The translations under genes and the position numbers were made by a program. A stretch of DNA of 64,000 bases from an uncultured Actinomycetota bacterium (lineage in GTDB: Bacteria > Actinomycetota > Actinomycetes > JAFAQI01), in assembly GCA_963814845.1 (NCBI GenBank), contig CAWFEP010000003.1:223485-287484 (forward strand), given 5' to 3'. Positions within the stretch are counted from its first letter, which is position 1. Each line of letters begins with the position of its first letter. The notes below the pieces were generated by a model, which saw only the letters and a list, made by a program, of their open reading frames with translations, did no database searches and was not told where the DNA came from. Of this stretch, positions 3,202 to 57,898 are shown in pieces.

Positions 3202-4621
3202 CTAAACCAGGCTCGAACCTTGGTGCACGACCACGCCGTCAAGCACCGTCAGCACCACTCGAGCGTCGGCAATCGTCGCGTCCGCCTCGCCGCCCGACCT
3301 CCGGTCGAGCACGATCAGATCGGCGAGCTTGCCGATACTGAGGTCCCCGGTCTCATCGAGATGGTTGGTGTAGGCCGAGCCCGAGGTGTAGGCCGTCAGT
3401 GCCGCGTCGAGGGACATCCGTTCGGTCGGGATGAAGGCGTCGCCGGCGTCGCCGGGGAGCTCACGGTTGACTGCGACGTGGATCCCGTCCTGTGGGTTCG
3501 CGGTGCTGACCGGCCAGTCGCTGCCGCCGGCGAGGTGCGCGCCCGAACGGCGAAGGCTCTCAAACGGATACCACCACTGCGCCCTGGGCTCGCCGAGATA
3601 GATGCATTCGCGGATCATGTCCGGGCTCGCGACCTCCCAGTACGGCTGGATGTTGGCGCTGACCCCTAACGCCGCGAACCGCGGAATATCGTGCGGATAC
3701 ACCAAGCAGGCATGGGCGATCTGGTGCCGCAGATCAGACCACCCGTTGGCCCGCCTGGCTGCCTCGACCGCGTCCAGCGCATGACGCACAGCAGCTTCAC
3801 CGATTGCATGAAAGTGGACTTGGAAGCCGAGCGCATCCAACTTGGTCACGGCACTGACAAGGCGCTCTGGCTCAATGAAATCCATGCCGCAGTTGCACGT
3901 CGGAGCGCCGGTTGCATCGAACGTACGGATCCAACACCGACGCCGAGAAGTTGCCGGTCGTGCCGTCAACCATCATCTTGATCGACGTCGCCTTGAGCCG
4001 GCCGATCTGAGACGCCGCTCGACTCGCCTCGAAGCCTTCGATCTGCTCCTCGCCGGCGAGCCGCTCCCACCACAACGCCGCGGTGACCCGCGCGCTGAGC
4101 TCACCCGCCCGGCCAGCCGCTGATAGGCCGCCCATCGCTGGGATCTGGCGTTTCGCGATCGATGCCGGCCGCAGCCAGCGCGGCGCTGTTGACCCAGCCG
4201 TCGTGCCCACCGGCACTCATCAAGAACACCGGCCGGACAGAGACAACCTCGTCCAGGAATGCCTTGTCGATCGAACCGTCGATCGCGGCGACCTCCCAGC
4301 CGGAGCCGAGGATCCAGGTCTCGGCCGGGTGCTCGGTGGAGTACGTCGCGATCACCTGGCGCACCGCGTCACGGCCGACGAGGTCATGCAGGTTGCATCG
4401 CATCATCGACAGGCCACCCCAGTTGGCGTGGATATGGGCATCCTGGAACGACGGCAGCACCGCGAGCCGTTGGCATCGATGACCCGGGTGCTGGGTCCGC
4501 GGAAGTCTCGAAGCTCGTCCGCCGTACCAATCGCGACGATGCGCCCGGACCGCACCGCGACATCGGTGTACGGCGCCCGCTGCCACAGCCGGCCGTTGGT
4601 GATGAGCAGGTCAGCCGACAC
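3202..4621 (-). CDS. Amidohydrolase-3 family metal-dependent hydrolase, paralog A; at least 3 frameshifts
   Basis: Three successive frames give MSADLLITNGRLW..., FQDAHIHANWGGLS...PVFLMSAGGHDGWVNS, ...ATSIKMMVDGTTGN, and C-terminus CNCGMDFIEPERL...HFHAIGEAAVRHALDAV...GGSDWPVS. It closely resembles the intact paralog at 24292-25920. Confidence 0.75.
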
Positions 4622-9244: not shown

Positions 9245-11752
9245 TTATACCGGGTCGAGCTGCCAGCGATGACTCTCGGCGATGAGCTGGCCGAGCTGCG
9301 CTGCCGGCATCGGCCGGGCGAGGTAGAAACCCTGGGCACGGCGGCAGCCGAGCCGCATGAGGTTGTCGAGCTGGCCATGAGTCTCGACGCCCTCAGCGGT
9401 GACCTCCAGCTCGAGCGCAGAGGCCATCGCGACGATCGCCGCCACCAGCGCGGAGTCGTGCGGATCGCCGCCCAGACCGTCGACGAAGGCACGATCGACC
9501 TTGACCGCGTCGACCGGGAAGCGCTTCAGGTAGCTCAACGATGAGTAGCCGGTGCCGAAGTCATCGATCGCCAGCCGGACACCGAGTGCCTTGAGGCTCT
9601 CCAGCGTCCACCGCGAGGACTCCACATCGTCCATCAGCACGCTCTCGGTCAGCTCAAGACACAAGCTCTCAGCGCGGGCGCCGGTCCGGAGAAGCACATC
9701 TCTCACGACGGACACGATGTCCGGTGCGCCGACCTGGCGGACCGAGAGGTTAACAGCGACCGACATGGTGATCTGGGTGTCCTGCCACTCGGCAAGCTGG
9801 GCACACGCCTGCTCCAGGACCCAGGCACCGATCGGCACGATGAGGCCGGTTTCCTCGGCGATCGGGATGAACTCCTCCGGGCTGATCGACCCGCGCACAG
9901 GGTGATTCCAGCGAAGTAACGCCTCCGCGCTCACCATGGCGCCGGTCGTGAGATCGATAATCGGTTGGTAGTGAACCGTGAGCTCTTGCCGGTCGATCGC
10001 ATGCCGAAGTGATGAGGCCGTGGCCAGATGCTGCGCGGCCTGCGCGCGCACCGCATCGTCGAACAACGCAATCTGGCCAGCGCCAGCAGACTTAGCGCGG
10101 TGCATCGCCGCGCCCGAGTCACGAAGCAGCGATTCAGCGGTCGCGTCGTCGTCGGCGACCGCGATGCCGACACACGCGGTCATGTCCACGTCGTGGATCC
10201 CGATCATGCCTGGCTGGCTCAGCGCGAGGAGGACGCGTCTCGCAACGGCTTCGGCTCCCAGCGGCGTGATGTCGTCGCAGACGACCACGAACTCGTCACC
10301 GCCAACCCGCGCGACCGTGTCACCTGGCCGGATCGCCTCGGAGATCCGGTCCGCAGTAAGCCGTAAGAACGCATCGCCGACTGAGTGGCCTAGGGAGTCG
10401 TTGACGCCTTTGAAGTGATCGACATCCAGAAACAGCACACCAAGCTGAGAGCGGCGCCGGCGCGAACCGGCGAGGCTGTGAACGAGCCGGTCGTTGAGCA
10501 GCGCGCGGTTTGCCAGACCGGTGAGCGGATCGTGCAGCATCTGATGCGCAAGGTCGTCCTCCACCCGCTTGCGCCCGGTGATGTCTTGCAGCTGGACAAA
10601 GAAATACCTGTACGCGCCTGCTTCGTCTCTGACCACCGTGACGTGGGTGGACGCCCAGATGTCCGTGCCGTCTGGCCGGGTGAACCGACGTTCATCGGCA
10701 TAGGTGTCACGACCAATGGCAGCGCCGGCCAAGACCTGGTCCCACAACGGCGGATCGTCGTCGTGCGCGTTGCTCACCCATGGAGTGCTCGTGAGTTCCT
10801 CGGCGCTCTTGCCGAGCAGCGTGCAGATCGCCTGGTTGGCCCGTGTCGGCACCCCGTCGAGATCGACGATGGCCGTACCGATCGCGGCCTGTTCGAAACC
10901 AACCTCGAACTGCGCCTCCGCGGCGCGCCGAACGGCTTCAGTGGCGATTCGGTCGGTCTCGTCCATCACCGTGCCAATGATCTTGACGACGGTGTCGCTG
11001 TCTACGGTCTCCGCTGTCATCCGCAGCCGAAGGCTGCGGGGTGTGCCGTCTGCCCGCGCGATCCGGAACTCCACGTCGATGTCCGTGCCGAGGCTTTCCA
11101 CCGCGCGCCAAGCATCACCGACGATCGGCACGTCGTCCGGATGCGCCATCGCCGAGAGCAGGTCCTTGCCGAGTTCGGTGCCGATCGGAAGACCAAGGAT
11201 CCGGTAGAACTCATCCGAGCGTGTGCGTGCACCGGAGACGAGGTCATGCTCGAAGCTGCCGATGTGGGCGATCTGCTGCGCCTCTGCGAGCTGTCGCTGG
11301 CTCGCCTCCAACGCCCGTTGGTCGTGACGCCGATGACTGATGTCGTGGGCGATCATCGACAAGCCGGTCACAGTCCCAGCAGCGTCGACGATCGGGGATG
11401 CCGTGAGCACAACTTCCACCAGGCTGCCGTCCTTGCGGCAGCGGGTCGTCTCGATTCGTTGTGCCGGACCGCCCGAGGTCAACGTCATTCGCATCTGCGC
11501 CTGTTCAGCGACCAGCAGACCTGGCGCGAGGAGCGACACCGGTTGTCCGATGGCCTCCGCAGCCGTGTAACCGAACAACTGCTCGGCTGCGGTGTTCCAG
11601 CTAGTAATTTCGCCTTCATTGGACACGCCCAGAATGGCATCGCCCGACGTCTCGACAATTGCCGCTAGCTGACGGCGAGCCTGCTCGCCAGCCTCAGGTC
11701 GCCGCCGATCATGGAGCGGCTCGCGCTCAGCGCGCAACAACCGGCCGATCAT
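9245..11752 (-). CDS. PAS/PAC sensor diguanylate cyclase/phosphodiesterase (PAS-PAS-GGDEF-EAL)
   Basis: 835-aa intact ORF with GGDEF motif [12 protein letters not shown] motif EALLRW and multiple PAS blocks. Confidence 0.9.
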
Positions 11753-12804
11753 GTGATCGCCTGTCGCGGCTCTGGTGCAATCACGATTGACGTTGCTGCC
11801 GTCCCGTTGAGGACAGCGGTCGGCTGATCGAGAGCCGATTCCCCACCAGCGAGCTCGACCCGGTTGCGACCGAGCCGCTTGGCGCGATACAGCGCTTCAT
11901 CCGCTTCCTTGAGAACCTCGCTCGCCGAGGTTCGGCGGTCCGGATCAAGAATCGCAATTCCCCCGCTGAAGGTCAGTACGCCGTGGGGATTGCCCGGGTG
12001 CGGGATCGCGAGTGACTCGATGCCCGAACGCATGCGTTCGATGGCCTGCCGCCCGGTCTCGATCGATTGTTCGGTGAAGATGCACAAGAACTCTTCGCCG
12101 CCGTAGCGATAGATCGAGTCGCCGCTTCGCAACAGTGCAGTCAGCTCGGCGGCAACGGTTTGCAAGATCTCGTCACCCGCCTGGTGACCGTAGCTGTCGT
12201 TGTAGGACTTGAAGTGATCGACATCGAGCACGGCCATGCAATAGCGGTGGCCATAGCGGCTGACTCGCGCCTCGAGGATCTCGAGGTCCTCGCTGAGAGC
12301 TCTGCGATTCGGCAATCCGGTCAGCGCATCGCGGCGCGCGATCGCGGTCAACTCGATGTTTCGCTCACCGAGTTGTTCGACCGACTGCTGGGCGGCACGC
12401 GCCTTGGTGGCCAGCGCCTCAGCCTGGCGGTAGAGGTTGGCAAACACCGACACCTTCGCGCGCAGCTCATTCGGTGGGACCGGAGCAAAGATGAAGTCCA
12501 CCGCACCCTGGGCGTAGTGATCGCCATGCGCGACTTCGTCGCGGTCGTGAGCAGTGATGAAAATAATCGGAGTCATCTCCGACTGCCGACGTTCCCTGAT
12601 AAGTGCGGCGGTTTCGAAGCCATCCATTCCCGGCATGATCACGTCGAGCAATATGACAGCGAAGTTCTGCACCATGAGACATCGAAGCGCCTCCATCCCG
12701 GACGCGGCTTCGACCACCGCATGACCGAGCGGCGCCAGCACCGCCCGGAGCGCAAAGCGTTTAGATGCGTTGTCATCGACCAACAAGATCGGTACGGATG
12801 ACAT
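11749..12804 (-). CDS. Response regulator receiver fused to GGDEF diguanylate cyclase (PleD/WspR-like)
   Basis: REC domain ILLVDDN...DVIMPGMDG, then coiled linker, then GGDEF motif [11 protein letters not shown]. It overlaps the downstream gene by 4 nt. Confidence 0.9.
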
Positions 12805-12813
12805 GAGGGACCG

Positions 12814-15784
12814 TCACGCCGGAGACAACTCCGGCTTCGAGAGCCACGGACCAATGGCTGCAATCAACTCAACGGTGTCAACCGGCTTTGGCACGTAGTC
12901 GTTGGCGCCAGCGGCCAGGCACCGCTCGCGCTCCCCGAACACGACCTTGCCAGTGACTGCGATAATCGGCAGCGACTGAAACGCCTCGATCTCGCGGATC
13001 GCGCGGATGGTGGCATAGCCATCCATGCCCGGCATCATGATGTCCATCAGCACGAGGTCGATGTCGGGTGAGTCGTTCAGCACGTCGAGCGCCTCGCGCA
13101 CCACCCTCGGCGACGCGCACGACGGCGTCGCCGCGCTCGAGCAGTGCGCTCAGCGCGAAGACGTTGCGGAAGTCGTCGTCGACGACGAGGATCTTCGTCC
13201 CGTCAAACGGCGAGCGTCCAATGCCTTGTTCTGGTCGGCCTTGCGCCTTCGCGCGGGGCTTCGGCTTGCGACCGTGCCGGAGCGCGGCGAGCGGCTGCAT
13301 TGAATGTCCGGGCGCACCTAGCGGCAGGTAAACGGTGAACGTGCTGCCCGGCTCGGCGCGCTGTCGACAGTGATCTCGCCGCCGAGCAGACCGACCAGCT
13401 CACGACTGATCGACAAGCCAAGCCCGGTGCCGCCGTAGTGTCGAGCGGTCGTTCCGTCGCCTTGTGCGAACGCCTCGAAGATCCGCTGCTGGTCGGCGAC
13501 ACCGATGCCGATCCCGGTGTCCTGCACCGAGATCGGCGAAGACCGATGCCGCATCGGACAGGGAGCGCCGATCTGAGTTCCGCCCGCCTAGCGTCGCATC
13601 GAAGCGGACCCGAACCTCGCCGCGCTCGGTGAACTTGAAGGCGTTCGCCAGCAGGTTTTTCAGGATCTGACGGAACCGTTGCGGGTCGGTGACGATCTGT
13701 TCGGGACCTCTGGCCCGATCTCGATCGAGAACCCGACGCTGCGGTCGTGAGCAACATGCTCGAACTCCCGATACAGGGTGTTGCGAAGGTCGATGACATC
13801 GACGACGCTTCCATATCGACGATCACCGTGCCGGACTCTGCCTTGGCCAAGTCGAGGATGTTGTTGAGCAGCTCAAGCAGGTCGCGGCCGGAAGCGAGAA
13901 TGACCGTCGCGTACTCAACCTGCTTCTCGGTCATCGTGTGGTCGGGGTTGTCCTCGAGCTGCTCGGCAAGGATGAGCAAGCTGTTAAGCGGTGTACGAAG
14001 CTCGTGCGACATGTTCGCGATGAACTCGGACTTGTACTTCGATGAGATCGCGAGCTGGCCGGCCTTCTCCTCGACGAGCTGCTTCGACTGCTCGACTTCC
14101 TGATTCCGTTGCTCCGCCTCGAGGTTCTGCTCCGCGAGCAAGGTGGCCTGCCGGCCAAGGTCCTCGTTGGACTCGCGAAGCTCTTCCTGCTGCGCGCTGC
14201 AGCTCCTCGGCCTGCGACTGGGACTGCTTGAGCAGGTTGTCGGTGAGGGTGTTGGCCTCGATCGTGTTGAGGACGAGGCCGATGCTCTCGGTGATCTGGT
14301 CGAGGAATGCTTGGTGGGTCACGCTGAACGGCGAGAACGACGCGAGCTCGACGACCGCGCGCACGACGCCTTCGAACAGCACGGGCAACACGATGATGTT
14401 CAGCGGAGTCGCCTCGCCGAGCCCAGAGTTGATCTTCACGTAGTCATCAGGAACGTCGGTGAGCAGGATCCGCTTCTTCTCCTTGGCGCACTGCCCGATC
14501 AGTCCCTGGCCGAGACTGAACGACGTCGAGAGGTGCTTCCGCTCCTCGAAGCCATAGCCGGCCTGAAGCTCCAGCAACGGCTCACCGCCATCGGTCGGCG
14601 TCACCATCGAGTAGAAGACCGCGTGCTGCGCTGAGACCAGCGACGCCAGCTCCGATCCAGGATCATGCTCGACGTCGTCGGTGAGGTCGCGCTCGCCCTG
14701 CAACATCCGAGTGAAGCGCTCGCGGTTGGTCTTCAACCAGTCCTGCTCGACGTTCTGCCGCGTCGTCTCCCGCAGGTTGCGGATCATCTCGTTGAGGGTG
14801 TCCTTCAGGACCGCGACCTCGCCGCTCGCCTCGACGCGGACCTGGCGGGTGAGGTCGCCCTCGGTCACCGCGGTGGCCACCTCGGAAATTGCCCGCACCT
14901 GGTTGGTGAGGTTGGCGGCGAGCTGGTTGACGTTGTCGGTCAGGTCCTTCCAGACGCCACCGACCTCCTTGGACTGAGCCTGGCCGCCGAGCTTTCCTTC
15001 GACACCGACCTCGCGGGCAACTCGAGTCACCTCACTGGCGAACGCGTTGAGCTGGTCGACCATCGCGTTGATCGTGTTCTTCAGCTCGAGAAACTCGCCT
15101 TTGACGTCGATCGAGATCTTCTTGCTCAAGTCGCCGTTGGCGACCGCCGTGGTGACCTCGGCGATGTTTCTCATCTGGCCGGTCAGGTTGCCGGCCATCA
15201 CGTTGACGTTGTCGGTCAGGTCCTTCCAGACCCCGCCGACCTCGATCGTGACCGCTGCGGCCTGGCCGAGCTTTCCTTCCGTGCCGACCTCGCGGGTCAC
15301 TCGGGTGACTTCGGAGATGAAGCCGTTGAGCTGGTCGACCATCGCGTTGATGGTGTTCTTCAGCTCGAGCATCTCGCCGCGGACGTCAGCGGAGACCTTC
15401 TTGCTCAGGTCACCGTCGGCGACTGCGCCGATCACCCGCTGCATCTCGATCGTCGGGCGTACCAGGTCGTCGATCAGGGTGTTGACCGACTCGACCGGCC
15501 CGGCCCAGCGGCCACCGAGCGAGCACCCGCTGCGAGAACCGGCCTTCTTTGCCGACGACCTGGCTGATCGCGCGCAGCTCCGCCTCGAGCGCCTGATTGC
15601 CCATGATGATCGTCGTTGAGCCCGTCGGCGACCTTGCCGGCGACGCCGGTCCAGTCCAAGCGGCATCCGGGCGGTGAGGTCGCCCGCTCTTGAACTGCGC
15701 GAGGACGTGCAGCAGCGTCTCGGCGTCGAGTCGCGTCGTGAGCGACCGCGGCAGCGCAGGAGCGGCTTCGCCGGCTCGCGCCAT
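12814..15784 (-). CDS. Hybrid sensor histidine kinase with tandem HAMP repeats, GAF, HisKA, HATPase_c and a C-terminal REC; at least 6 frameshifts
   Basis: Pieced from several frames. The N-terminus is MARAGEAAP...[17 protein letters not shown]. At least three ~92-aa HAMP repeats ([20 protein letters not shown]) follow, then a GAF domain, His[17 protein letters not shown], HATPase [14 protein letters not shown], and a REC domain KILVVDDD...[10 protein letters not shown]. Confidence 0.7.
14690..15500. repeat. Tandem ~276-bp DNA repeats encoding the HAMP modules
   Basis: Near-identical nucleotide blocks (…gttgacgttgtcggtcaggtccttccagac…) recur at ~276-bp period. Confidence 0.6.
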
Positions 15785-16117
15785 TGGTTCCGCGGGGAGG
15801 GCGACAGGCAGGCTGGGCGATGGGCATAGGGCGTCCGTTCTAGCGTTGTCGGGCTAGAGCGACAGCGGTCCGGGCTCTCGGGAGAGTGCTTCGACACGCC
15901 CACCCCTGAACTGATGCTTTCTGGTTATTCCGAAACCGTGAGCGTCAGGGAGGCTTAGAGGGTCTGGCGCAACATTACTCGCGATCTTGGGATCGCGAGC
16001 GTGCGACAGGGACAGGTTCTCCGATTTTTCCGCGCAAAACGCATCAGTTGGGCGGTCAGGTTGTCGAAGTTCACCGCAGAGCCTGGAACCGTTGCTCTAG
16101 CCCGCCACCGCTAGATC

Positions 16118-16599
16118 GGACACCCGTGATCTCCCTCATCCTTGGCGTACTGCTAGTTCTCGCCCTCGCCGTGATCCTGGTGCTTGTGCGGCGCCTCCAG
16201 TCAGTCAGCGCCGCTGCCAGTAGCGAGGAAGCACCCGACGAGCCCGCTCGGGCTGCGGCGGACGGCGACGCTGCCGACGCAGCTGAGTCGGTTGAGCCAG
16301 CCCACCCGGTCCAAGCCGCCCAGCCAGTCCAAACAGCGCCACCCGTCCAAGCGGCGCCAGCGCCCGCAGCACCGCCAGCGCCCGCAGCGGCGCCAGCGCC
16401 CGCAGCACCGCCAGCGCCCGCAGCACCGGCTGCCCCGGCCCCGCAATTCGCACCACCAGCCGCACCGGTCGCGCCAGCCGCGGCAGCCGCGGCAGCACCG
16501 CCAACGCCCGCGGCGGCCACCGCTCCTGCCGCCGCCTTCGTCCCGCCGGTCACCGGCAGGCCGGGGACATACGGCGTCGACATCCTGCCGGGGCGTTAG
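16118..16599 (+). CDS. Membrane-anchored Pro/Ala-rich repeat protein (hypothetical)
   Basis: One TM helix ISLILGVLLVLALAVILVLV, then PVQAAQ/PAPAAP repeats. Start taken at GTG ~16118; the track ORF starts earlier at 16048. Confidence 0.55.
16303..16428. repeat. Tandem 18-bp repeats (3x PVQxxx unit, 4x ccagcgcccgcagcaccg unit)
   Basis: Direct tandem copies read directly from the sequence. Confidence 0.7.
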
Positions 16600-17211: not shown

Positions 17212-18753
17212 GTGCCGCTGGCGACCAGCCGGCCGCTAGCTCGAGCAGGCGACACAGTGAGGCGCGTGGTGGCGGTGCTCCATCGTCTGCGTACCCATCG
17301 CTGGGCTGCGCGTTTGCTCATCGCCGTCATATCGGTCTGCCTCATCGGCGGCGCCGCCGGGCTGCTGTCCGCCTCGCAGGCGAGCGCTCACCGCGGCGTC
17401 AGCCAGCGGTACGACGCCCGCGCCGGTCTGGCCGCCAACTTCGTCAGCACGTACGTGTCTCAGCTCACCAGCCGCGAGCGATCGGTCGCGCTGGCCACGC
17501 TGACGGGCCGCGATCCGACGGCCGCGTTTGATCAAGACGTCCGCGCGTTCGGCTTCCAAACGGCGGTGGTGCTCGACGATCACGGCCGAGCGTTGAGCAT
17601 CGTGCCCAGCGCACCATCACTGATCGGCCAGCAATACAGCAGTACCTACGCCGAGCTCGGCACTGCGCTCGCCGGCCACATCGCCGTATCGAACATCGTC
17701 ACGTTCGCCGGTCGCGGCTCGCCCGTCGTCGCATTCTCGGTGCCGTTCTCCACTCAGTACGGTCTGCGCGTGTTCAGTGGCGCATACGCCATCAGCCAGA
17801 CCCCACTTGCAGCGTTCCTCAGCGACACCACTACCCAGACTGACGCGCAGGTCTATCTGACCGACGACGCCGGAGCTGTCCTGGCCTCAAACGGTGCGCA
17901 GCCGAAAGCAGTCCGCACCCTGGGCCAACGCGAACCCGCACTGGGTCGGGCCATGGCGGCGCACGCCAGTGGCCAATACCGAGTGAACTCCACGAGCTAC
18001 ACGTTCGTCCGCAAACCGGTAGCGGGCACGCCGTGGTCGCTGACGATCGTGATCCCGACGGCCGAGTTGTACGTCTCTGTAGTCGGCGCGAGCCACTGGT
18101 TGCCTTGGCTCATCCTGGTCGCACTGTCGCTCTTGATGGCGTTGGCCGCACTCCTGACGGTGCGCATGCTCGAAGGTCGTCGCCGGCTCGCCCACGCCAA
18201 CCGAAAGCTCGCGACCCTCGCACGGACCGACGGGCTGTCGGGCCTGTTCAACCGGCTCTATGTCACCGAACAGCTCGAGACCTTGCTGGCCAACTCAAGC
18301 CGATACCACTTCCCGGTCTGCGTGCTCATGATCGACATCGATCACTTCAAGCAGCTCAACGACAAGCATGGACACCAAGCTGGCGACGAAGCGATCCGGC
18401 ACATCGCCGACCGGCTTCGCATCTCGGTGCGCGACGGTGACCTGTTGGGTCGCTGGGGCGGCGAGGAGTTCCTCGCAGTGCTCCCCCACACCTCACTCGA
18501 GGAGGGCCTCGAGGTGGCCGAGCGGCTGCGCCGACTCGTCGCCTTGGTGCCGATCGAGATCAATGCGAAGGCCGACGTGGTGACGATCCAGATCAGCATC
18601 GGCGTCGCGCAATCCGGTGACGACTCATTGGCCGCCCTCGTCCACCGAGCAGACCTCGGCCTCTACGAAGCGAAGGCGGCGGGGCGCAACGCCGTCCGCG
18701 TCTTCACCCCGACCGCGGACAACCCTGCTCCGCTCGTGTCACCTCGACTCTGA
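17212..18753 (+). CDS. Membrane sensor diguanylate cyclase (periplasmic sensor-TM-GGDEF)
   Basis: TM helix near the N-terminus, ~270-aa extracytoplasmic region, second TM, then GGDEF motif RWGGEEFLAV. The start codon is uncertain (GTG 17212 or 17257). Confidence 0.85.
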   Translation: MPLATSRPLARAGDTVRRVVAVLHRLRTHRWAARLLIAVISVCLIGGAAGLLSASQASAHRGVSQRYDARAGLAANFVSTYVSQLTSRERSVALATLTGRDPTAAFDQDVRAFGFQTAVVLDDHGRALSIVPSAPSLIGQQYSSTYAELGTALAGHIAVSNIVTFAGRGSPVVAFSVPFSTQYGLRVFSGAYAISQTPLAAFLSDTTTQTDAQVYLTDDAGAVLASNGAQPKAVRTLGQREPALGRAMAAHASGQYRVNSTSYTFVRKPVAGTPWSLTIVIPTAELYVSVVGASHWLPWLILVALSLLMALAALLTVRMLEGRRRLAHANRKLATLARTDGLSGLFNRLYVTEQLETLLANSSRYHFPVCVLMIDIDHFKQLNDKHGHQAGDEAIRHIADRLRISVRDGDLLGRWGGEEFLAVLPHTSLEEGLEVAERLRRLVALVPIEINAKADVVTIQISIGVAQSGDDSLAALVHRADLGLYEAKAAGRNAVRVFTPTADNPAPLVSPRL

Positions 18754-19702: not shown

Positions 19703-20878
19703 TTAGGTGCGGCTGATTTCGATGGTGCCGTGGGTGTTTCTGGTGATGGTCCAGTTGGTGTGGTGGATGAGCCAGTGGTGGAACGCGCAGAGGTAGGCGC
19801 TGTTCGTGTGGTTCGTGGGTCCGCCGTGTTCCCAGTGGTTGAGGTGGTGGAGGTCGCAGCGGGCGAGTGGGGTTTGGCAGCGGGGGAAGGTGCAGCCGTG
19901 GTCGCGGAGGGCGGCGGCGCGGCGTTGCGCGCGGCTGAAGGAGCGGCGGGTCCGGCCGAGGTCGAGGATCTCGGAGTGGGTGCCGAGGATGGCGGGGATG
20001 AGGTTCGCGTCGCAGGCGAGCCGCCGGGCGGTGGTGGGGGTGACTGGGGTGCCGTTGAGGGTGGCGTGTCCGAGTTGACCGGTGTTGATCCCGTCGCGGA
20101 GCTCGGTGTAGGGGATGGTGAGGATGACCTGGGGGCGTTCCCCGCCGTGGTCGGGCAGGTCGGCGTGGGTGAGGCTGAACCGGGCGAGGTCGGTCAGCGC
20201 GTCGGCGCGGCGTTGTGATGTCGTCCGGGTGTCTTCGGGTCCGGTGGGGGTGGCGACGAGCGGGGTGAGCGCGGCTTGGAGGATCGCGCCGGACTCCGGG
20301 TCGAGCATCCCGTCGAGGTGGATCATCCCGTCAAACGTGGAGCTGACGGTGAGCTGGCGGGCAGCGTGGCGGCGGGCTTCGGCGGCCTCGGCGTCCTCAT
20401 CGGCGCCGGACCGGACCCGAAGCGCGGCGCACAGCCGGGCGAGCGTGGCCGGGTCGTTCGCGGTCGCGAACTCGCACAGCTCGTTCTCGGCTGGTTCCCG
20501 CCAGTCGACCGGGAGCTTGGTGACGCAGTTGATGATCAGCTGCGCGTGGTCGTGGCTGATCCGGCCGGCGAGCAGCAGGTCGGCGAGCTGCGGGTGAGCG
20601 GGCAGCCGGCGCGCCACCCACATCCGCCGGGACGCCTCGGCTGGTGAGAGGTGTTGATCCTCGACCAGCCATGACCGGGTGGTCCGGCCACACTCGGCCA
20701 CGGTCACGTCCCGGACGTCAGCGGCTTGCAGCCGGACCGCGATCAGCCCGTCGAGGGTGTTGCGGGTGGCCAGCAGCGTCTCGGTCTCGTCCAACAGGTC
20801 GGTGTCGCTCAACCCGTGCGCGTCGACCGTGGCGAGCGAGCTGATGACGGTGTCGAGGTCACTGAGCAGGTCTGGCAT
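19703..20878 (-). CDS. DUF222 / HNH endonuclease-domain protein (13E12-repeat family)
   Basis: C-terminal HNH motif CTFPRCQTPLARCDLHHLNHWEHGGPTN...CAFHHWLIHH, with an N-terminal DUF222-like region. Confidence 0.75.
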   Translation of the reverse strand: MPDLLSDLDTVISSLATVDAHGLSDTDLLDETETLLATRNTLDGLIAVRLQAADVRDVTVAECGRTTRSWLVEDQHLSPAEASRRMWVARRLPAHPQLADLLLAGRISHDHAQLIINCVTKLPVDWREPAENELCEFATANDPATLARLCAALRVRSGADEDAEAAEARRHAARQLTVSSTFDGMIHLDGMLDPESGAILQAALTPLVATPTGPEDTRTTSQRRADALTDLARFSLTHADLPDHGGERPQVILTIPYTELRDGINTGQLGHATLNGTPVTPTTARRLACDANLIPAILGTHSEILDLGRTRRSFSRAQRRAAALRDHGCTFPRCQTPLARCDLHHLNHWEHGGPTNHTNSAYLCAFHHWLIHHTNWTITRNTHGTIEISRT

Positions 20879-21093
20879 CCCGACCACCCCCACCAAGCAC
20901 TCTGGCATCGAACGTATGTTCGACTGGTATCCAACGTATCCGGTGGGTGGGACCGTTTCAAGGGCATGAGAACCGTTGGGGATAAACAAAAAACGGTCAC
21001 TTCGCGCACCTCGGCCACAACGGCGGTTAGCTGGCCGCTCGCATCACCAACGTCGAGATCGACGCAAAAGGCTCGTGAGCCGCGTCCACGTCA

Positions 21094-50006: not shown

Positions 50007-50381
50007 CTATCTGTCCCATCTGGGCGAGTCCGGTGAGACTCACCTACGTACCTAACGGCCGGGCACACCACCAGGTTGACGACTGCCCTGAGATTGTTGT
50101 GACAGTCAGCCCGACCAGCCACCCGATCCAGAACAAGTAGCCGGCTATGCGCGCCTTAGCGAACGACCTAAGCAAACTAATCGCGACTATCTGTCGGCCG
50201 TTGCCAACCATCCTCGCGCGAACGCCTCGGCGGTCTTTGCGAGCGGATAACAGCCCTGACAGCCCGGAGTCAGCGGGGCTCGCTGCGGTCGGTGTCCAGC
50301 GGTGCCTAGCGCGCATGGCGCCCAGTTCGGAAACCCGCAGGACCAAGATCGTTGATCATGGCCCTGACCTGCACCTTTGAG

Positions 50382-50454
50382 TGGAGCTGAGGGGATTCGA
50401 ACCCCTGACCCCTTGCATGCCATGCAAGTGCGCTACCAGCTGCGCCACAGCCCC
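50382..50454 (-). tRNA. tRNA-Ala (anticodon GGC)
   Basis: The reverse complement folds as a cloverleaf: acceptor GGGGCTG, D-arm GCGCAGCTGGTAGCGC, anticodon stem-loop CTTGC-ATGGCAT-GCAAG (anticodon GGC), and T-arm GGGGTTCGAATCCCC. It has the G3:U70 Ala identity pair. Confidence 0.85.
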
Positions 50455-50495: not shown

Positions 50496-51542
50496 TCAGC
50501 TCACGGTGTCCTGATCGATATCGGCGGGCAGGTTGGGCAGTTTGAAGGGCCCTTCGATCTGCTCGTGGACGGTCAGCGGCGATTTCCCGTTCTTGTACGG
50601 CGCTGCCCATTGGTTGGTGACCTCCGTACCCGACTTCCCACAGGAGATCGAGAACGGCGAACTGGGCGTTGTGCTCACCAGGCTGGCCGAGCCGGTGACA
50701 GCGCCGCCCGCGCCGACCTGCACAGTGGGCAGGCCCGCAGCGAAGGTGAAGGTCATGTGCTTGTCAGGGACGGTGAGGCTGTCGAATCGTTCCGCTCCTT
50801 TTGGCTTGTTCAGCGAGACGTTGCGGAACGCCGAGATCTCTGTGTGGGTCTTGCCATTGACCTTCTGCCTGCTGCCTTCGATCGACGTGAAGTTGGCACC
50901 GGCGGTCTTCTCGCCCGACCAGGAGATGTCCGACATGCACGGCTCACGGGTAAGACCGCAGAACTGAAGATCACCGAACTGTTCGCTGACCTCGCTCTTC
51001 CCGCCGAAGCTGTGGGCGGCATGCTTGCTGACCTTGCCCCAACGACCGGCCCCGGTCGAACGGGTGTTGAACGAGAACGAGCCGTGGACGGTGACCGGCT
51101 GCATGACGGTCCGGCTGCTGTGACAGACCGTCGTGTGTTTCTTGCCGGTGGCAGTGAACGTCAACGTCATCGCTGCGTACGGCTTCAGCGCCGCGCCAAC
51201 CTTTAGCGAACCGTTGCCGGACGCTGGGTTGAACTTCAGCGATCCTTTCTTGAGAGCGAAATCCCAGTCGTGGAACTCGGCGAGGCCTTTGCGGGTGACA
51301 GCGATCCCGGCAGATTCAGCGTGTTGCCCACCGGTACTCGACTCGCTGGCACTGAACGAGACGTGCAGCTGCTTGTGGGTAGTCGAGGACAACGTGAGCG
51401 TTGCCAAGTCGAAGCTGATGCTCCGCGGAGTCGGCGCTGGTTTCGCCGGTGCCGCGAGCGAAACGCCCGAGACTGTGAGCCCCAGCAACACACTTGCTGT
51501 CGCGATCAGCACAAACGAGCGTCGTAACTTGGACTCTGCCAT
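50496..51542 (-). CDS. Secreted hypothetical protein
   Basis: 348 aa with a signal peptide and a Ser/Thr/Gly-rich composition. Confidence 0.55.
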   Translation of the reverse strand: MAESKLRRSFVLIATASVLLGLTVSGVSLAAPAKPAPTPRSISFDLATLTLSSTTHKQLHVSFSASESSTGGQHAESAGIAVTRKGLAEFHDWDFALKKGSLKFNPASGNGSLKVGAALKPYAAMTLTFTATGKKHTTVCHSSRTVMQPVTVHGSFSFNTRSTGAGRWGKVSKHAAHSFGGKSEVSEQFGDLQFCGLTREPCMSDISWSGEKTAGANFTSIEGSRQKVNGKTHTEISAFRNVSLNKPKGAERFDSLTVPDKHMTFTFAAGLPTVQVGAGGAVTGSASLVSTTPSSPFSISCGKSGTEVTNQWAAPYKNGKSPLTVHEQIEGPFKLPNLPADIDQDTVS

Positions 51543-51630
51543 TTCGGACCCCCACCGTTGGCTGCGTGGATGGTCGCATCAGCACCCAGCAACCGCAAGC
51601 GATCTGGCACATCCGGTCACTTCGGATGTC

Positions 51631-52276
51631 TCAGCGGGCGTCGTCGCCGGTCTCCTCCTCGGGTGGGCTGCCGGCGTTGTGCTCCTCGAGCCGCCAGCCT
51701 CGACCCATGTCGGCGAGCAGCGACCACCGGCAGTTCGACAGCGGCGCGAGCCGCCACCAGGTGTCCGGCGCCATGCCGAGCAACGTGCCGATCGTCGCCC
51801 GAGCCGTGCCGCCGTGGGTCACCGCGACGCAGCAACGAGCCCGGGCCGAGCTCGGTCCAGCCACTCGTGCACGCACGCGGCGGCCCGCGCGCCAACCTCT
51901 GCGTACGTCTCGCCGCCGCCGCGCCGCGCGTCCTCGCCGGCTCTGCCACCGGGCGTACTCCTCGGGGAACCGGGCCCGCGCCTCCGCCCGGGTCAGACCC
52001 TGCCACTCACCGAGGTGGATCTCGCGCAGCCGCGGGTCGATGGCGATGTCCATGCCGGCCTCAGCGCTCACCGCAGCCGCCGTGTCGAGCGCCCGCGACG
52101 AGGTCGGAGGAGACCAGCGCGTCAGGCTGCATCGGCGCGACGGCGACCGCGGCTGCCGCAGCCTGAGCGCGCCCGACCAGGTCGAGCGGCGAGTCGAGCT
52201 GGCCCTGGAACCGGCCGGTGGCATTCCACTCGGTCCGGCCGTGACGCAGCAGGACGACCCGGCGCACCTGGCTCAC
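51631..52276 (-). CDS. Histidine phosphatase (phosphoglycerate-mutase-like) family protein; frameshift near 52065
   Basis: N-terminal catalytic motif VVLLRHGRTEWN. The body, in another frame, has EIHLGEWQG and VAVTHGG. Confidence 0.7.
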
Positions 52277-52694
52277 GATGCGGGCGGCAGCGCGTCAGCG
52301 GGCAGCGGCAGCGACGGGCAGTCCTTCCACAGCCGCTCGAGGGAGTAGAAGACGCGCTCCTCGCTGTGCTGCACGTGCACGACGATGTCGAAGAAGTCGA
52401 GCAGCACCCACCGACCCTCGCGCTCGCCCTCGCGCCGTACCGGCTTCGCGCCGAGGGTCCGAGCAGCCGCTCCTCGATCGCGTCGACGACGGCGTTGACC
52501 TGGCGCTCGTTCGGCGCCGAGGCGAGCACGAAGCAGTCGGTGATCGCGAGATGCTCGCTGACGTCGATGATGCTCAGGTCGGTGGCGAGCTTGTCGGCGG
52601 CAGCGCTGACGGCGGCCTCGGCCAGCTCAATGCTGCGGGCAGTAGCGGTCAACAGGATCCTCGGTCGAGTCGTACCTGGCAATGGAGGCAACAC
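52273..52694 (-). CDS. rsfS: Ribosomal silencing factor RsfS (Iojap family); frameshift near 52440
   Basis: LAITDCFVLASAPNERQVNAVVDAIEE is followed in the other frame by GRWVLLDFFDIVVHVQHSEERVFYSLERLW. Confidence 0.75.
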
Positions 52695-54293: not shown

Positions 54294-54308
54294 TTCGCTT
54301 GCCGGCCA

Positions 54309-54913
54309 TTACCCTACTTTCGCGTACAAGTTGCGCTTGGAGATGTATTGCACGACGCCGTCCGACACGAGGTACCAGACCGGCTCGCCTGCCCGCACCC
54401 GTAAGCGGCAGTCGGTCGAGCTGATCGCCAGCGCCGGGACCTCGACCAGGCTGACCGTGCCTTCCGGGAAGCCCTGGTCGGACAGGTGGTGCCCCGGGCG
54501 AGTCACGCCGATGAAGTGCGCCAGCGTGAACAGCTCGGCTGACCGGTGCCAGCCGAGGATCGCCTCTAGAGCATCGGCGCCGGTGATGAAGAACAACTCG
54601 AGCATCCGGGCCGAATCGGTCCCGCAGGTCGGTCAGGGTGTCGATCGTGTAGGTCGGGCCCGGCCGGTCGATGTCGACCCGGCTGACCGAGAACCGCGGG
54701 TTGGACGCGGTGGCGATGACGGTCATCAGATAGCGGTCCTCGGCCGGGCGACACCGGGTCCTTGGACTTCTGCCACGGCTCGCCGGTCGGCACGAACACG
54801 ACCTCGTCGAGGGCAAACCGGCTCGCGACCTCGCTGGCCGCCACGAGGTGGCCGTGGTGCACGGGGTCGAACGTGCCGCCCATGACCCCGATGCGACGTG
54901 GCGCGACAATCAC
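54309..54913 (-). CDS. nadD: Nicotinate-nucleotide adenylyltransferase; 2 frameshifts
   Basis: N-terminal [15 protein letters not shown] (HxGH), then the middle and C-terminal parts in the other two frames. Confidence 0.8.
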
Positions 54914-54972
54914 CGCGATCGCTCACGCTGAGCAAGGCTACCGGCGCAGCTGCGGCCCGCCTAACCGCGGGC

Positions 54973-57272: not shown

Positions 57273-57308
57273 GCGGACTCCCGGCGGGATCGACGAACAG
57301 AACGTGAT

Positions 57309-57898
57309 TCTAGCGGGGTCGCGTGGCCTCGACGTCGACGAAGCCCAGCTCGGCCGCGGCGTGCAGCTGGGCGGCCTGCGTGCTGCTTCGCTCGATCAGC
57401 CAGCGGGTGACCGTCTCGTTGACCACCTGGGCGTGCCGGGCGATCCACAGCGAGAGCAGCGCGAGCGGGATCTCGAGCACGGCGGCAGCGGCGATCGACT
57501 GCGTCAGCTGCCAGCCCGGGCGTGGCGGTCATCAGGTCGAACCAGGCGTCGACGATCAGCAGCGTCGCGGTCGCGGTCGCGGCCATGTCGACCCAGGTCG
57601 AGCGGCGGTAGGCGAGCCAGGCGGTCAGCGCCAGCGCGATCGCCTCCATCGCGTCGAGGCCGACCCAGGCCGCCCGGTAGTGGCCGTCGCCGAACTCCGC
57701 CGGGCGGGCGAAAGCGAGGTAGACGATCCACGGGACCAGCAGGACGGACAGCGTGAGGTAGAGCGGCGCGACCCAGCGCGGCGCGGGCGCAACCGTCGGG
57801 TGCCGGACGAAGCGGCGCCGCGGCGGCTCGAGCGGCTGGTCGAGCGGGAGGTCAGGCAGATCGTCGAACGCCATCGCACCCACCTCCTCCTGCCACAA
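57309..57898 (-). CDS. Hypothetical integral membrane protein; frameshift near 57530
   Basis: Four predicted TM helices. The C-terminus in the other frame ends AELGFVDVEATRPR-stop at 57309. Confidence 0.5.

What the first reader, a model, noticed from the sequence alone, without database searches (positions are those of the whole stretch)
9245..15784. Three-gene c-di-GMP phosphorelay operon: multi-HAMP/GAF hybrid kinase, then REC-GGDEF, then PAS-GGDEF-EAL
The three genes are co-directional, and the last two overlap by 4 nt. A cytoplasmic hybrid kinase with a poly-HAMP array and GAF domain sits directly upstream of a PleD-like REC-GGDEF and a PAS-PAS-GGDEF-EAL enzyme. This predicts a dedicated signal-to-second-messenger cascade, and poly-HAMP/GAF kinases are poorly characterised. 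A fourth GGDEF sensor lies nearby at 17212-18753. The tandem HAMP DNA repeats coincide with the densest frameshift cluster, which suggests a repeat-collapse problem or genuine repeat instability.
Basis: partly seen in the sequence, partly recalled or inferred. Interest (0 to 1): 0.6.

Follow-up and report, generated by a model that had tools for sequence, protein, structure and literature searches.

The report
Poly-HAMP kinase operon controlling c-di-GMP
This is a real three-gene c-di-GMP signalling operon from an uncultured soil actinomycete: its kinase only looks broken, most likely because of assembly errors, and its cyclase is a natural gene fusion that appears to shorten a longer phosphorelay to a direct kinase-to-cyclase link.

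Summary

- **Kinase (12814-15827):** a soluble AskA-type kinase with 7 HAMPs, then GAF-HisKA-HATPase-REC.
- **REC-GGDEF (11749-12804):** starts 9 nt after the kinase stop.
- **PAS3-GGDEF-EAL (9245-11752):** overlaps the REC-GGDEF by ATGA.

All catalytic motifs are intact.

**Frameshifts.** The kinase carries 21 frame-breaking indels. Eight independent metagenome contigs of the same locus were found; the six that span the gene encode an intact 997-aa kinase. The indels lie in a 3-kb tract that differs by 6.5% from those contigs, against 0-1.3% in the other flanking genes (2.6% in the adjacent REC-GGDEF). Most of those differences are synonymous and there are no in-frame stops. No indel lies in the 279-bp HAMP DNA repeat. 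I read this as assembly noise, not gene decay or repeat collapse.

**New finding.** In most related loci the kinase is followed by REC-HK2-REC-Hpt, then REC-Hpt, then REC-GGDEF. Here the cyclase is a chimera: aa 1-~135 match the HK2 N-terminal receiver, and aa ~140-315 match the terminal GGDEF. No Hpt is left. That receiver group always lacks the conserved Lys (Ala106 here) but keeps Asp54.

The "phosphorelay" and "PleD-like" labels are only partly right. Interest is moderate.

The parts
12814..15827 (-). Hybrid histidine kinase HK1 (AskA-type): 7 HAMPs, GAF, HisKA, HATPase_c, REC. It is 997 aa in intact copies. In this window it is interrupted by 21 frame-breaking indels.
   Evidence: Frameshift-aware alignment to the intact orthologue L003. 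Base-by-base mapping to the intact 997-aa gene L078:6999-9992.
14704..15731 (-). [quoted passage not shown] There is no transmembrane segment.
   Evidence: Pfam gives HAMP x3 and HAMP_2 x3, plus a weak N-terminal HAMP recorded for the intact JGI copies. phmmer to the AskA poly-HAMP crystal structure 9TRK gives E 3e-80. Hydropathy scan.
14905..15423 (-). 279-bp tandem DNA repeat (1.9 copies, 80% match), equal to one di-HAMP module of 93 aa. It contains no indel.
   Evidence: TRF. Indel positions.
14269..14643 (-). GAF domain of HK1
   Evidence: Pfam GAF_2, E 1.7e-13 and 1.5e-13.
13830..14033 (-). HisKA (DHp) domain with H-box SHELRTPLN
   Evidence: Pfam HisKA, E 1.7e-18. Sequence shown.
13315..13705 (-). 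HATPase_c catalytic domain. N box: [11 protein letters not shown] boxes: [15 protein letters not shown]. It is visible only after frameshifts are bridged.
   Evidence: Pfam HATPase_c, E 4e-27 on the repaired protein. Three-frame translation.
12850..13190 (-). C-terminal receiver of HK1 (orthogroup RECk). It has the full DD-D-T-K set.
   Evidence: Pfam Response_reg. Residue census: K present in 37/37.
11749..12804 (-). REC-coiled coil-GGDEF diguanylate cyclase (351 aa), a chimera of the RECa receiver and the terminal GGDEF
   Evidence: Pfam. WspR 3BRE, E 4e-43, aligned end to end. Sliding-window identity shows a crossover at aa ~125-145.
12451..12789 (-). Receiver domain RECa: D10, D11, D54 (12643-12645) and T84 are kept. 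The conserved Lys is replaced by Ala106 (12487-12489, motif DFIFAPV).
   Evidence: Alignment to CheY and census over 32 loci and 124 database homologues.
11860..12336 (-). GGDEF domain with I-site and active site [14 protein letters not shown] (12088-12129)
   Evidence: Pfam GGDEF, E 7.5e-46. Motif positions.
9245..11752 (-). PAS x3-GGDEF-EAL protein (835 aa), similar to MucR and MorA. PAS 10613-11671, GGDEF 10079-10537, EAL 9311-10012.
   Evidence: Pfam. PDB 5M3C, E 2.7e-118, and 4RNH, E 5.5e-104. Motifs [40 protein letters not shown].
11749..11752 (-). ATGA stop/start overlap between REC-GGDEF and PAS-GGDEF-EAL, which suggests translational coupling
   Evidence: Sequence read. The same overlap occurs in the JGI contigs.
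17266..18753 (+). Divergently oriented membrane sensor cyclase: TM, weak dCache match, TM, GGDEF (GGEEF with RxxD)
   Evidence: Pfam. Hydropathy shows two TM segments. Motif. The JGI gene call is 495 aa.

Best explanation
**What the locus is.** It is a three-gene, probably co-transcribed, c-di-GMP control module of an uncultured soil actinomycete.

**Gene 1, the kinase.** It is a soluble AskA-type sensor kinase. An array of seven HAMP domains and a GAF domain control a HisKA/HATPase core that carries its own receiver.

**Gene 2, the cyclase.** It is a WspR-like enzyme: receiver, coiled-coil linker, then GGDEF with an intact GGEEF site and an RxxD product-inhibition site.

**Gene 3.** It is a PAS3-GGDEF-EAL enzyme of the MucR/MorA type with both catalytic motifs intact. 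It is translationally coupled to gene 2.

**Proposed mechanism (inferred, not shown).**
- An unknown cytoplasmic signal, read by the HAMP array and GAF domain, sets kinase autophosphorylation.
- The phosphoryl group passes from the kinase His directly to Asp54 of the cyclase receiver.
- The kinase's own receiver acts as a competing sink or regulator.
- Phosphorylation drives linker-mediated oligomerisation of the cyclase and c-di-GMP synthesis.
- The PAS-gated GGDEF-EAL enzyme sets turnover.

**Evolution (shown by comparison).**
- In most relatives the same kinase heads a long relay: REC-(PAS)-HK2-REC-Hpt, then REC-Hpt, then REC-GGDEF.
- The cyclase here is a fusion of the first receiver of that relay with the last GGDEF.
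- This is as if about 3 kb had been deleted, which would short-circuit the relay.

**The kinase frameshifts.** They are assembly or sequencing noise in a 3-kb tract that derives from a divergent or poorly covered strain. The gene is intact in the natural population.
For: **Domains and motifs**
- The operon structure is a 9-nt gap and a 4-nt overlap, with no convincing terminator (3 terminator-like sites against 3.6 expected).

**Family assignments**
- The HAMP array matches the AskA structure 9TRK at E 3e-80.
- The architecture matches the kinase-type poly-HAMP family defined in PMC13446029.

**Conserved linkage**
- In 32 of 33 related loci the receiver orthogroup RECa is encoded immediately after the kinase.
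- A PAS-GGDEF-EAL gene accompanies the cluster in 14 of the 33 loci: upstream in 12, and downstream in the window and in L018.

**Long relay in relatives**
- Pfam on L004 and L037 ORFs shows REC-HisKA-HATPase-REC-Hpt, REC-Hpt and REC-GGDEF.

**Chimera**
- The five REC orthogroups separate cleanly in an NJ tree, and the window receiver falls in RECa, not in RECd.
- Window aa 1-~130 are 63-90% identical to the HK2 N-terminus and only 20-37% identical to the terminal regulator's receiver.
- Window aa ~140-315 are 57-90% identical to the terminal GGDEF.
- The crossover lies in the linker.
- A second fusion class, RECa-PAS-GGDEF, has a different breakpoint. It sits right after a poly-HAMP kinase in L087.

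**Frameshifts as artefact**
- Eight independent JGI contigs carry the same gene order; the six that span the kinase encode an intact 997-aa protein that is identical among them to within 0-4 nt.
- Compared with L078, the other flanking genes differ by 0-1.3% and no annotated gene downstream of the kinase has a gap.
- The kinase tract differs by 6.5% and has 23 gap events. Of these, 16 are 1-2-nt insertions and 5 are 1-nt deletions.
- Of 194 substitutions, 135 are synonymous. That gives a rough dN/dS of about 0.14, my estimate from those counts.
- There is no in-frame stop on the repaired path.
- Essential genes at 51-63 kb, such as obg, are broken in the same way.
Against: - **No direct evidence of phosphotransfer.** The receiver lacks the conserved Lys, with Ala in 27/32 loci and 109/124 homologues. 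By the definition in PMC12632262 that makes it a pseudo-receiver, so phosphorylation may be slow, unusual or absent.
- **Alternative contact in Myxococcus.** In M. xanthus the reported contact between AskA and AskC is receiver to receiver (PMC7643160).
- **Hybrid kinases usually need Hpt.** They normally pass phosphate through an Hpt, and none is present here.
- **Direction of the deletion is weakly resolved.**
  - The direction rests on parsimony, not on a resolved tree.
  - In the HK1 tree, short forms are monophyletic in 6/100 bootstraps.
  - Short forms plus L018 group in 31/100.
- **No reads or coverage were available.** A genuine strain-specific pseudogene is therefore not formally excluded.
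- **The indel clustering is unexplained.** The sharp confinement of indels to the kinase, with none in 3.6 kb of the next two genes, is only explained by an assumed strain-chimeric or low-coverage stretch.
Confidence: 0.72

Rival explanations
1. The kinase is a genuine, strain-specific pseudogene. After it was inactivated, the two downstream c-di-GMP genes stayed under selection and now work without it.
For: - There are 21 frame-breaking indels in 3.0 kb, against none in the adjacent 3.6 kb.
- The indels coincide with a tract of raised divergence.
- The exact window sequence could not be traced to reads.
Against: - The substitutions in the tract are 70% synonymous (135 of 194) and there is no in-frame stop on the repaired path. 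That is the signature of a gene evolving under purifying selection, not of neutral decay.
- A divergence of 6.5% exceeds what neutral decay could add, given about 1% divergence in the flanks.
- All the indels are 1-3 nt and they are insertion-biased. From general knowledge, this is the opposite of the deletion bias seen in bacterial pseudogenes.
- The kinase is intact and nearly invariant in all six contigs that span it, out of eight independent samples of the locus.
- Essential genes elsewhere in the window (obg, proA/B, rsfS) are broken in the same manner.
- Nanopore MAG loci of relatives show the same fragmentation.
Confidence: 0.12
2. The operon is real, but the kinase does not phosphorylate the cyclase directly. 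The Lys-less receiver acts as a pseudo-receiver. It would be regulated by receiver-receiver contact with the kinase's own REC, or phosphorylated by way of that REC and an unlinked Hpt protein.
For: - The conserved Lys is absent in every member of the RECa group.
- The pseudo-receiver definition, and the note that such domains may work differently, come from PMC12632262.
- An interaction between AskA Rec3 and the AskC receiver was reported in M. xanthus.
- The kinase is a hybrid with its own complete receiver.
Against: - Asp54, the DD pair, Thr84 and the following Pro are strictly conserved across more than 150 sequences. That is hard to explain without phosphorylation chemistry.
- No Hpt is encoded in the 64 kb.
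- According to PMC12632262, substitutions at the Lys position do not necessarily abolish phosphorylation.
Confidence: 0.3
3. The short kinase-to-REC-GGDEF arrangement is ancestral. The long relay arose later, by insertion of HK2/REC/Hpt modules into a REC-GGDEF gene.
For: - The HK1 tree does not robustly resolve short versus long forms.
- Short-form REC-GGDEF proteins are numerous in metagenomes.
Against: - An insertion would have to split one gene precisely in its linker, and deliver four receiver, kinase and Hpt modules in frame.
- Long forms occur in Acidimicrobiia, Thermoleophilia and Frankiales MAGs. They lie on both sides of the midpoint root.
- Two fusion classes with different breakpoints exist, REC|GGDEF and REC-PAS|GGDEF. 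Independent deletions from the long form explain this more simply.
Confidence: 0.1

Closest known systems
AskA/AskB poly-HAMP hybrid histidine kinases of Myxococcus xanthus (kinase-type poly-HAMP family; PDB 9TRJ/9TRK) and fungal group III hybrid kinases (Nik1/Os-1)
   Same: - It is a soluble protein with no transmembrane segment.
- The N-terminal array alternates canonical and non-canonical HAMPs built from 92-93-aa di-HAMP modules.
- The array is followed by GAF, DHp/CA and receiver domains.
- The array matches 9TRK at E 3e-80.
- askB is followed immediately by another hybrid kinase gene, askC. In most relatives of this locus, HK1 is likewise followed by REC-HK2.
   Different: - The array is short, with 7 HAMPs.
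- There is one C-terminal receiver here.
- The downstream partner is a diguanylate cyclase, not a second kinase.
- No link between this kinase family and GGDEF outputs turned up in the literature searched.
- The organism is an uncultured actinomycete, and nothing here has been tested experimentally.
WspR (Pseudomonas aeruginosa, PDB 3BRE), a REC-coiled coil-GGDEF cyclase
   Same: - It has a single receiver, a helical linker and a GGDEF domain.
- The alignment runs end to end at E 4e-43.
- GGEEF and the RxxD I-site occupy the same positions.
   Different: - The receiver lacks the conserved Lys (Ala106).
- The partner is a cytoplasmic poly-HAMP hybrid kinase, not the CheA-like WspE.
- The protein is of chimeric origin.
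   Same: It is a receiver-controlled GGDEF cyclase with an I-site. The match to 1W25 is E 1.3e-35.
   Different: PleD has two receiver domains (REC-REC'-GGDEF). This protein has one, and only PleD residues 155-448 align with it.
MucR (PDB 5M3C) and MorA (PDB 4RNH), tandem GGDEF-EAL enzymes of Pseudomonas
   Same: - The GGDEF-EAL tandem aligns over about 415 residues, at E 2.7e-118 and 5.5e-104.
- Both catalytic motifs and all EAL metal and substrate residues are kept.
   Different: - The N-terminus here consists of three cytoplasmic PAS domains, not membrane sensor modules.
- The activities are untested.
Multistep phosphorelays that end in a REC-GGDEF, for example hybrid kinase + Hpt + cyclase pathways such as CfcA/CfcR or HptB-linked systems in Pseudomonas
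   Same: Relatives of this locus encode a full relay: hybrid kinase, REC-kinase-REC-Hpt, REC-Hpt and REC-GGDEF.
   Different: In the window the internal modules and both Hpt domains are missing. The comparison with CfcA/CfcR comes from memory and from abstracts listed, and was not tested.

Membership tests
Kinase-type poly-HAMP hybrid histidine kinases (AskA-like; PMC13446029) | [quoted passage not shown] | tested here: met
   Pfam gives HAMP x3 and HAMP_2 x3, plus an N-terminal HAMP. There is a 279-bp di-HAMP DNA repeat. phmmer to the AskA array 9TRK gives E 3e-80.
Kinase-type poly-HAMP hybrid histidine kinases (AskA-like; PMC13446029) | Array lies upstream of GAF + DHp/CA + one or more receivers | tested here: met
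Kinase-type poly-HAMP hybrid histidine kinases (AskA-like; PMC13446029) | Soluble protein, with no transmembrane segment before the array | tested here: met
   The Kyte-Doolittle scan of the intact 997-aa copy finds only one hydrophobic stretch, and it lies inside the GAF fold.
Kinase-type poly-HAMP hybrid histidine kinases (AskA-like; PMC13446029) | Open, translatable gene in this genome | tested here: inconclusive
   The window copy has 21 frame-breaking indels. The gene is intact in all six independent contigs that span it, out of eight contigs of the locus. No reads were available.
Multistep His-Asp-His-Asp phosphorelay | An Hpt domain or protein between the hybrid kinase receiver and the terminal regulator | tested here: not met
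   There is no Hpt in the operon or its neighbours. tblastn with two Hpt domains from L004 finds nothing in the 64-kb window at E<=1e-3. Hpt is present in relatives.
Canonical receiver domain (CheY-like) | Active-site quintet DD, D, T/S, K | tested here: not met
   D10, D11, D54 and T84 are present. The Lys position holds Ala106. The same holds in 31/32 loci and in all 124 database homologues.
WspR-type REC-linker-GGDEF diguanylate cyclase | Single REC, helical linker, GGDEF with GG(D/E)EF and RxxD I-site | tested here: met
   End-to-end alignment to 3BRE. RSGD-x5-GGEEF lies at aa 226-239.
PleD-type cyclase | Two tandem receiver domains before GGDEF | tested here: not met
   Pfam finds one Response_reg (aa 6-118) in 351 aa.
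Catalytically competent EAL phosphodiesterase | EAL(L)[20 protein letters not shown] and QG residues | tested here: met
   All are present and aligned with MucR and MorA. Enzyme activity cannot be tested here.
Decaying pseudogene | Relaxed selection: near-random codon-position spectrum, nonsense mutations, deletion-biased indels of mixed size | tested here: not met
   137 of 194 substitutions are at codon position 3, and 135 are synonymous. There is no stop on the repaired path. All the indels are 1-3 nt and most are insertions.

The most novel reading that the evidence does not exclude
Poly-HAMP/GAF kinases of soil Actinomycetota have a dedicated, strictly adjacent partner receiver that has given up the universal active-site Lys but keeps the phospho-Asp. 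The multistep relay behind it has repeatedly been collapsed by in-frame deletions, of two classes (REC|GGDEF and REC-PAS|GGDEF). Each collapse wires the kinase directly to a diguanylate cyclase. If this is right, the locus family is a natural series of the same sensor and the same output joined by 1 to 5 phosphotransfer steps. It would also define a new functional class of Lys-less but phosphorylatable receivers.
Probability: 0.45. Interest if true: 0.65.

Novelty: new variant of a known kind. Interest (0 to 1): 0.45.

Why it matters
**Practical lesson.** The window comes from an assembly with local bursts of indel errors. Apparent pseudogenes in it should not be taken at face value. An independent-assembly check settled this case quickly.

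**Biology.**
- AskA-type poly-HAMP kinases are widespread but have little known output biology. They are related to the fungal fungicide-target kinases.
- Here, and in hundreds of metagenomic relatives, they are hard-wired to c-di-GMP enzymes.
- Long and short versions of the same pathway coexist in related genomes, with clean fusion breakpoints. This offers a natural test of what extra relay steps contribute.
- The conserved Lys-to-Ala receiver is a simple, testable oddity in a very well studied domain.

None of this has been tested experimentally, and the organisms are uncultured.

Tried and rejected
- **Tracing the source contig.**
  - Exact-sequence look-ups with the window REC-GGDEF, the PAS-GGDEF-EAL and P0121 all returned "not on record".
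  - The organism and its reads therefore stay unknown.
  - The near-identical cluster member P0241 gave the useful contigs instead.
- **RNA elements.**
  - An Rfam scan of the whole window found only a tRNA.
  - It found no c-di-GMP riboswitch and no other RNA family at gathering score in the roughly 370-nt gap upstream of the kinase (15828-16204).
- **Promoters and terminators.** The scan gave counts at chance level.
- **First protein search.** The HAMP array query was swamped by long poly-HAMP proteins from many phyla and gave no orthologue information.
- **Homopolymer-type error.** I considered this and rejected it, because the indel contexts are mostly not homopolymer runs.
- **Repeat collapse.** Rejected, because the HAMP array has the same length as in the intact copies.
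- **Single origin of the short form.** I tried to show this with a bootstrapped HK1 tree. Support was weak, at 6/100 and 31/100.
- **L029.** The kinase appears to be followed directly by GGDEF, with no receiver. The locus was too fragmented to interpret.
- **AskC sequence.** It could not be retrieved, so the homology of RECa to the AskC receiver was not tested.

Full report
**1. What is at the coordinates**

All three genes lie on the minus strand.

- **9245-11752** is an intact 835-aa ORF. Pfam finds PAS domains (three stretches), GGDEF (E 1e-38) and EAL (E 2e-77).
- **11749-12804** is an intact 351-aa ORF with Response_reg (aa 6-118) and GGDEF (aa 157-315).
- The two ORFs overlap as ATGA.
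- The kinase stop lies 9 nt before the REC-GGDEF start.

Upstream of 12814 there is no single ORF. Domain hits are spread over at least six pieces in three frames:
- HAMP/HAMP_2 and GAF in 13984-15903.
- HisKA in 13203-14141.
- Part of a receiver in 12814-13104.

I ran a frameshift-aware alignment to an intact orthologue (L003, 1007 aa). It bridges the pieces with 13 frameshifts and no in-frame stop. The repaired protein scores for HAMP_2, HAMP, GAF_2, HisKA, HATPase_c (E 4e-27) and Response_reg.

Mapping to a near-identical intact copy puts the true start at the ATG at 15827.

The nearby GGDEF gene (17212/17266-18753, plus strand) has two transmembrane segments around a weak dCache match. It also carries RDGD-x5-GGEEF.

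**2. The frameshifts**

*Distribution in the window.* I trained a codon-usage frame model on the window's long ORFs. It shows that same-strand frame switches are very unevenly distributed:
- a few at 3.9-4.5 kb;
- the kinase;
- a large cluster at 51.4-63.1 kb;
- almost none in the 35 kb between.

The 51-63 kb cluster hits housekeeping genes. Obg has its GTPase part and its C-terminal domain in different frames. proA, proB and rsfS are partial. Broken essential genes already argue for sequence error.

*The decisive evidence.* A protein search found the window's REC-GGDEF at 100% identity. Its cluster includes members at 90% identity or more from JGI metagenomes.

- One member, P0241, lies on contigs from eight different samples (L078-L085).
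- The longer contigs carry the gene order of the window: DUF222, hydrolase, the divergent GGDEF sensor, two small ORFs, the kinase, REC-GGDEF, PAS-GGDEF-EAL with the same 4-nt overlap, TetR and MFS; the shorter ones hold parts of it.
- All six contigs that span the kinase call it as one 997-aa gene.
- Those kinases differ from one another at 0-4 nucleotides.

*Window compared with L078.*

| Region | Mismatches | Gap events |
|---|---|---|
| Other flanking genes | 0-1.3% | none, except one 1-nt insertion (149-aa ORF) and the repeat-length changes in the 120-aa ORF |
| REC-GGDEF | 2.6% | 0 |
| Kinase | 6.5% (194) | 23 |

The 23 gap events break down as follows:
- thirteen 1-nt insertions;
- three 2-nt insertions;
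- five 1-nt deletions;
- two 3-nt insertions.

The divergent tract starts sharply at the kinase start and fades near its end.

*Substitution pattern.* Of the 194 substitutions, 137 are at third codon positions and 135 are synonymous. From those counts I estimate dN/dS at about 0.14. That is real divergence accumulated under purifying selection, not sequencing error and not neutral decay.

*Interpretation.* A pseudogene old enough to collect 21 frame-breaking indels should show many nonsynonymous and nonsense changes. It should also show deletion-biased indels of mixed sizes. None of this is seen. The simplest reading is that this 3-kb stretch of the assembly derives from a different, poorly covered strain, or from a recombinant allele. 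On that reading it carries uncorrected indel errors.

Related loci from nanopore MAGs (the MFD series: L005, L020, L028, L030, L069) show the same kind of fragmentation.

*The repeat-collapse idea fails.* The only tandem DNA repeat (14905-15423, period 279) contains no indel. The array has the same length as in intact copies. The indel contexts are mostly not homopolymers.

I could not obtain reads or the source contig. A real strain-specific pseudogene therefore keeps a small probability.

**3. What the proteins are**

*Kinase.*
- It has no transmembrane segment.
- Its array matches the crystal structure of the M. xanthus AskA poly-HAMP array (9TRK, E 3e-80).
- Its order is array, then GAF, DHp/CA and REC. 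That is exactly how the kinase-type poly-HAMP family is defined in PMC13446029.
- The same paper and PMC7643160 relate this family to fungal group III hybrid kinases.
- The H box, N box and G boxes, and the receiver's DD-D-T-K set, are all present.
- Hundreds of proteins of about 1000 aa, 60-98% identical over the GAF-to-REC part, occur in soil metagenomes. The same is true of MAGs of Acidimicrobiia, Gaiellaceae, Frankiales and Acidothermaceae. All are annotated only generically.

*Cyclase.*
- It aligns end to end with WspR (3BRE, E 4e-43), including the helical linker.
- It has one receiver, not the two of PleD.
- GGEEF and the RxxD I-site are intact.

*Third protein.*
- Its GGDEF-EAL tandem aligns with MucR (5M3C, E 2.7e-118) and MorA (4RNH).
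- It keeps GGDEF, the I-site and every conserved EAL residue.
- It may therefore be bifunctional.

**4. Comparison with related loci: the main new result**

I scanned one genome per species with the REC-GGDEF as query and obtained 77 loci. The best matches were 65-68% identical and all came from uncultured Actinomycetota MAGs. Thirty-three of the 77 carry the poly-HAMP kinase.

*The long form.* Most of the 33 loci have this cluster, confirmed with Pfam on L004 and L037:
1. kinase (with one or two receivers);
2. REC-(PAS)-HisKA-HATPase-REC-Hpt;
3. REC-Hpt;
4. REC-GGDEF.

*The short form.* The window and L001, L002, L003, L020 and L069 have the kinase followed directly by REC-GGDEF.

*Receiver orthogroups.* The receivers of these clusters fall into five clean orthogroups in an NJ tree. 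The window's cyclase receiver belongs with the N-terminal receiver of the second kinase (RECa). It does not belong with the receiver of the terminal cyclase (RECd).

*Sliding-window identity against five long-form loci.*

| Window REC-GGDEF residues | Compared with | Identity |
|---|---|---|
| aa 1-~130 | second kinase N-terminus | 63-90% |
| aa 1-~130 | terminal regulator's receiver | 20-37% |
| aa ~140-315 | terminal GGDEF | 57-90% |

The switch lies inside the coiled-coil linker (..[14 protein letters not shown] | ..[16 protein letters not shown]). The cyclase is therefore a chimera. It is equivalent to an in-frame deletion of about 3 kb. That deletion would remove the second kinase core, two receivers, both Hpt domains and the last receiver.

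*No Hpt or second kinase remains.* Neither is found anywhere in the 64-kb window.

*A second fusion class.* REC-PAS-GGDEF proteins of 460-485 aa join the second kinase's REC+PAS to the same GGDEF. In L087 this protein sits immediately after a 1166-aa poly-HAMP kinase.

*Closest arrangement.* L018 (a Gaiellaceae MAG) has the long form with a PAS-GGDEF-EAL gene directly downstream. The window's arrangement equals that of L018 minus the deleted block.

*The PAS-GGDEF-EAL gene.* It accompanies the cluster in 14 of the 33 loci: upstream of the kinase in 12, and downstream of the cyclase in the window and L018.

*Direction of change.* Long forms occur in several classes and on both sides of the midpoint root of a kinase tree. 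Short forms are nested within them. Bootstrap support is weak, at 6/100 for short forms alone and 31/100 with L018. I therefore infer that deletion is the derived state from parsimony, not from a resolved tree.

**5. An unexpected conserved feature**

The RECa group lacks the receiver Lys that corresponds to CheY K109.

- In the window the motif is DFIFAPV, with Ala106.
- Across 32 loci the position holds Ala (27), Thr (2), Val (1), Ser (1) and Lys (1). The single Lys is a mislabelled internal receiver.
- The other four receiver groups of the same clusters always have Lys: 37/37, 25/25, 11/11 and 13/13.
- Among 124 database homologues of the cyclase, none has Lys (109 Ala). All 124 keep the phospho-acceptor Asp, and 121 keep RxxD plus GG(D/E)EF.

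By the definition in PMC12632262 this is a pseudo-receiver that retains its Asp. The same paper notes that such domains may still be phosphorylated, less efficiently.

A search for the phrase "lacks the conserved lysine" alongside "receiver domain" returned no paper. A search combining AskA, AskC, poly-HAMP and GGDEF turned up nothing that links poly-HAMP kinases to GGDEF outputs.

**6. How it most likely works**

*Shown:*
- gene order and coupling;
- domain content;
- intact catalytic and acceptor residues;
- conserved adjacency of the kinase and RECa;
- chimeric origin of the cyclase;
- absence of Hpt.

*Inferred:*
- The kinase's HAMP array and GAF domain read an unknown cytoplasmic cue.
- The kinase His phosphorylates Asp54 of the cyclase directly.
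- The kinase's own receiver competes or regulates.
- Phosphorylation activates the cyclase through its linker, as in WspR.
- The I-site limits output.
- The PAS-gated GGDEF-EAL enzyme, made from the same message, balances the c-di-GMP pool.

*Main mechanistic alternative.* The Lys-less receiver may be controlled by receiver-receiver contact, as reported for AskA Rec3 and the AskC receiver. Or it may be phosphorylated through an unlinked Hpt.

**7. Verdict**

The locus is a new variant of known kinds of system. Its interest lies in three things: the relay-collapsing gene fusion, the conserved Lys-less receiver, and the link between AskA-type kinases and c-di-GMP. The frameshifts that drew attention are, with high probability, assembly noise.

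Noticed in passing
window 51380-63100: This is a high-GC (70-75%) stretch of housekeeping genes broken by about 18-27 frame switches.
- Obg is split between 60679-62523 and 60894-61616.
- proA, proB and rsfS are partial; a likely nadD fragment was recognised by eye only (no Pfam hit).
- The VWA (CoxE-like) ORF also runs out of frame; the adjacent MoxR-like AAA gene reads as one ORF.

This is the largest frameshift cluster in the window. Because essential genes are hit, it points to assembly indel errors.
   Followed up: partly
window 16205-16504 (tandem repeats 16298-16496): A small ORF (120 aa in the JGI gene calls) about 370 nt upstream of the kinase start is built of 9/18/36-nt tandem repeats (CAGCGCCCG). 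Compared with the near-identical contig L078, the window has a 54-nt deletion, an 18-nt deletion and a 9-nt insertion. All three are in frame, so this is a length-polymorphic repeat protein of unknown function.
   Followed up: partly
window 12814-15830 vs L078:6999-9992: A 3-kb tract with 6.5% mostly synonymous divergence is embedded in a background that is about 99% identical. It starts exactly at the kinase start. It is either a recombination import of a foreign allele or a strain switch in the assembly.
   Followed up: partly
window 12487-12489 (Ala106 of the REC-GGDEF); loci L001-L042: The receiver orthogroup encoded directly after poly-HAMP kinases always lacks the conserved active-site Lys (usually Ala). 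The other four receiver groups of the same clusters always keep it.
   Followed up: yes
L087:4495-9410; proteins P0179, P0206, P0212, P0214, P0237: A second fusion class, REC-PAS-GGDEF, has a different breakpoint at the PAS/DHp boundary of the second kinase. In L087 it is encoded right after a poly-HAMP kinase.
   Followed up: partly
L029:7700-10430: The kinase appears to lack its receiver and to be followed directly by a GGDEF segment. The locus is fragmented by frame breaks and could not be interpreted.
   Followed up: no
L005, L020, L028, L030, L069 (MFD nanopore MAGs): The orthologous genes are split into several HSPs in different frames over the whole locus. Frameshift noise therefore seems common in these public long-read MAGs.
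   Followed up: no
window 3900-4500: The codon-usage model shows three more frameshift-like frame switches on the minus strand.
   Followed up: no
window 19703-20989 (-) and 50381-50454 (-): There is a DUF222 protein (428-aa ORF, E 1.5e-39) next to the sensor cyclase neighbourhood. A tRNA-Ala(GGC) is the only RNA family hit in the window.
   Followed up: no
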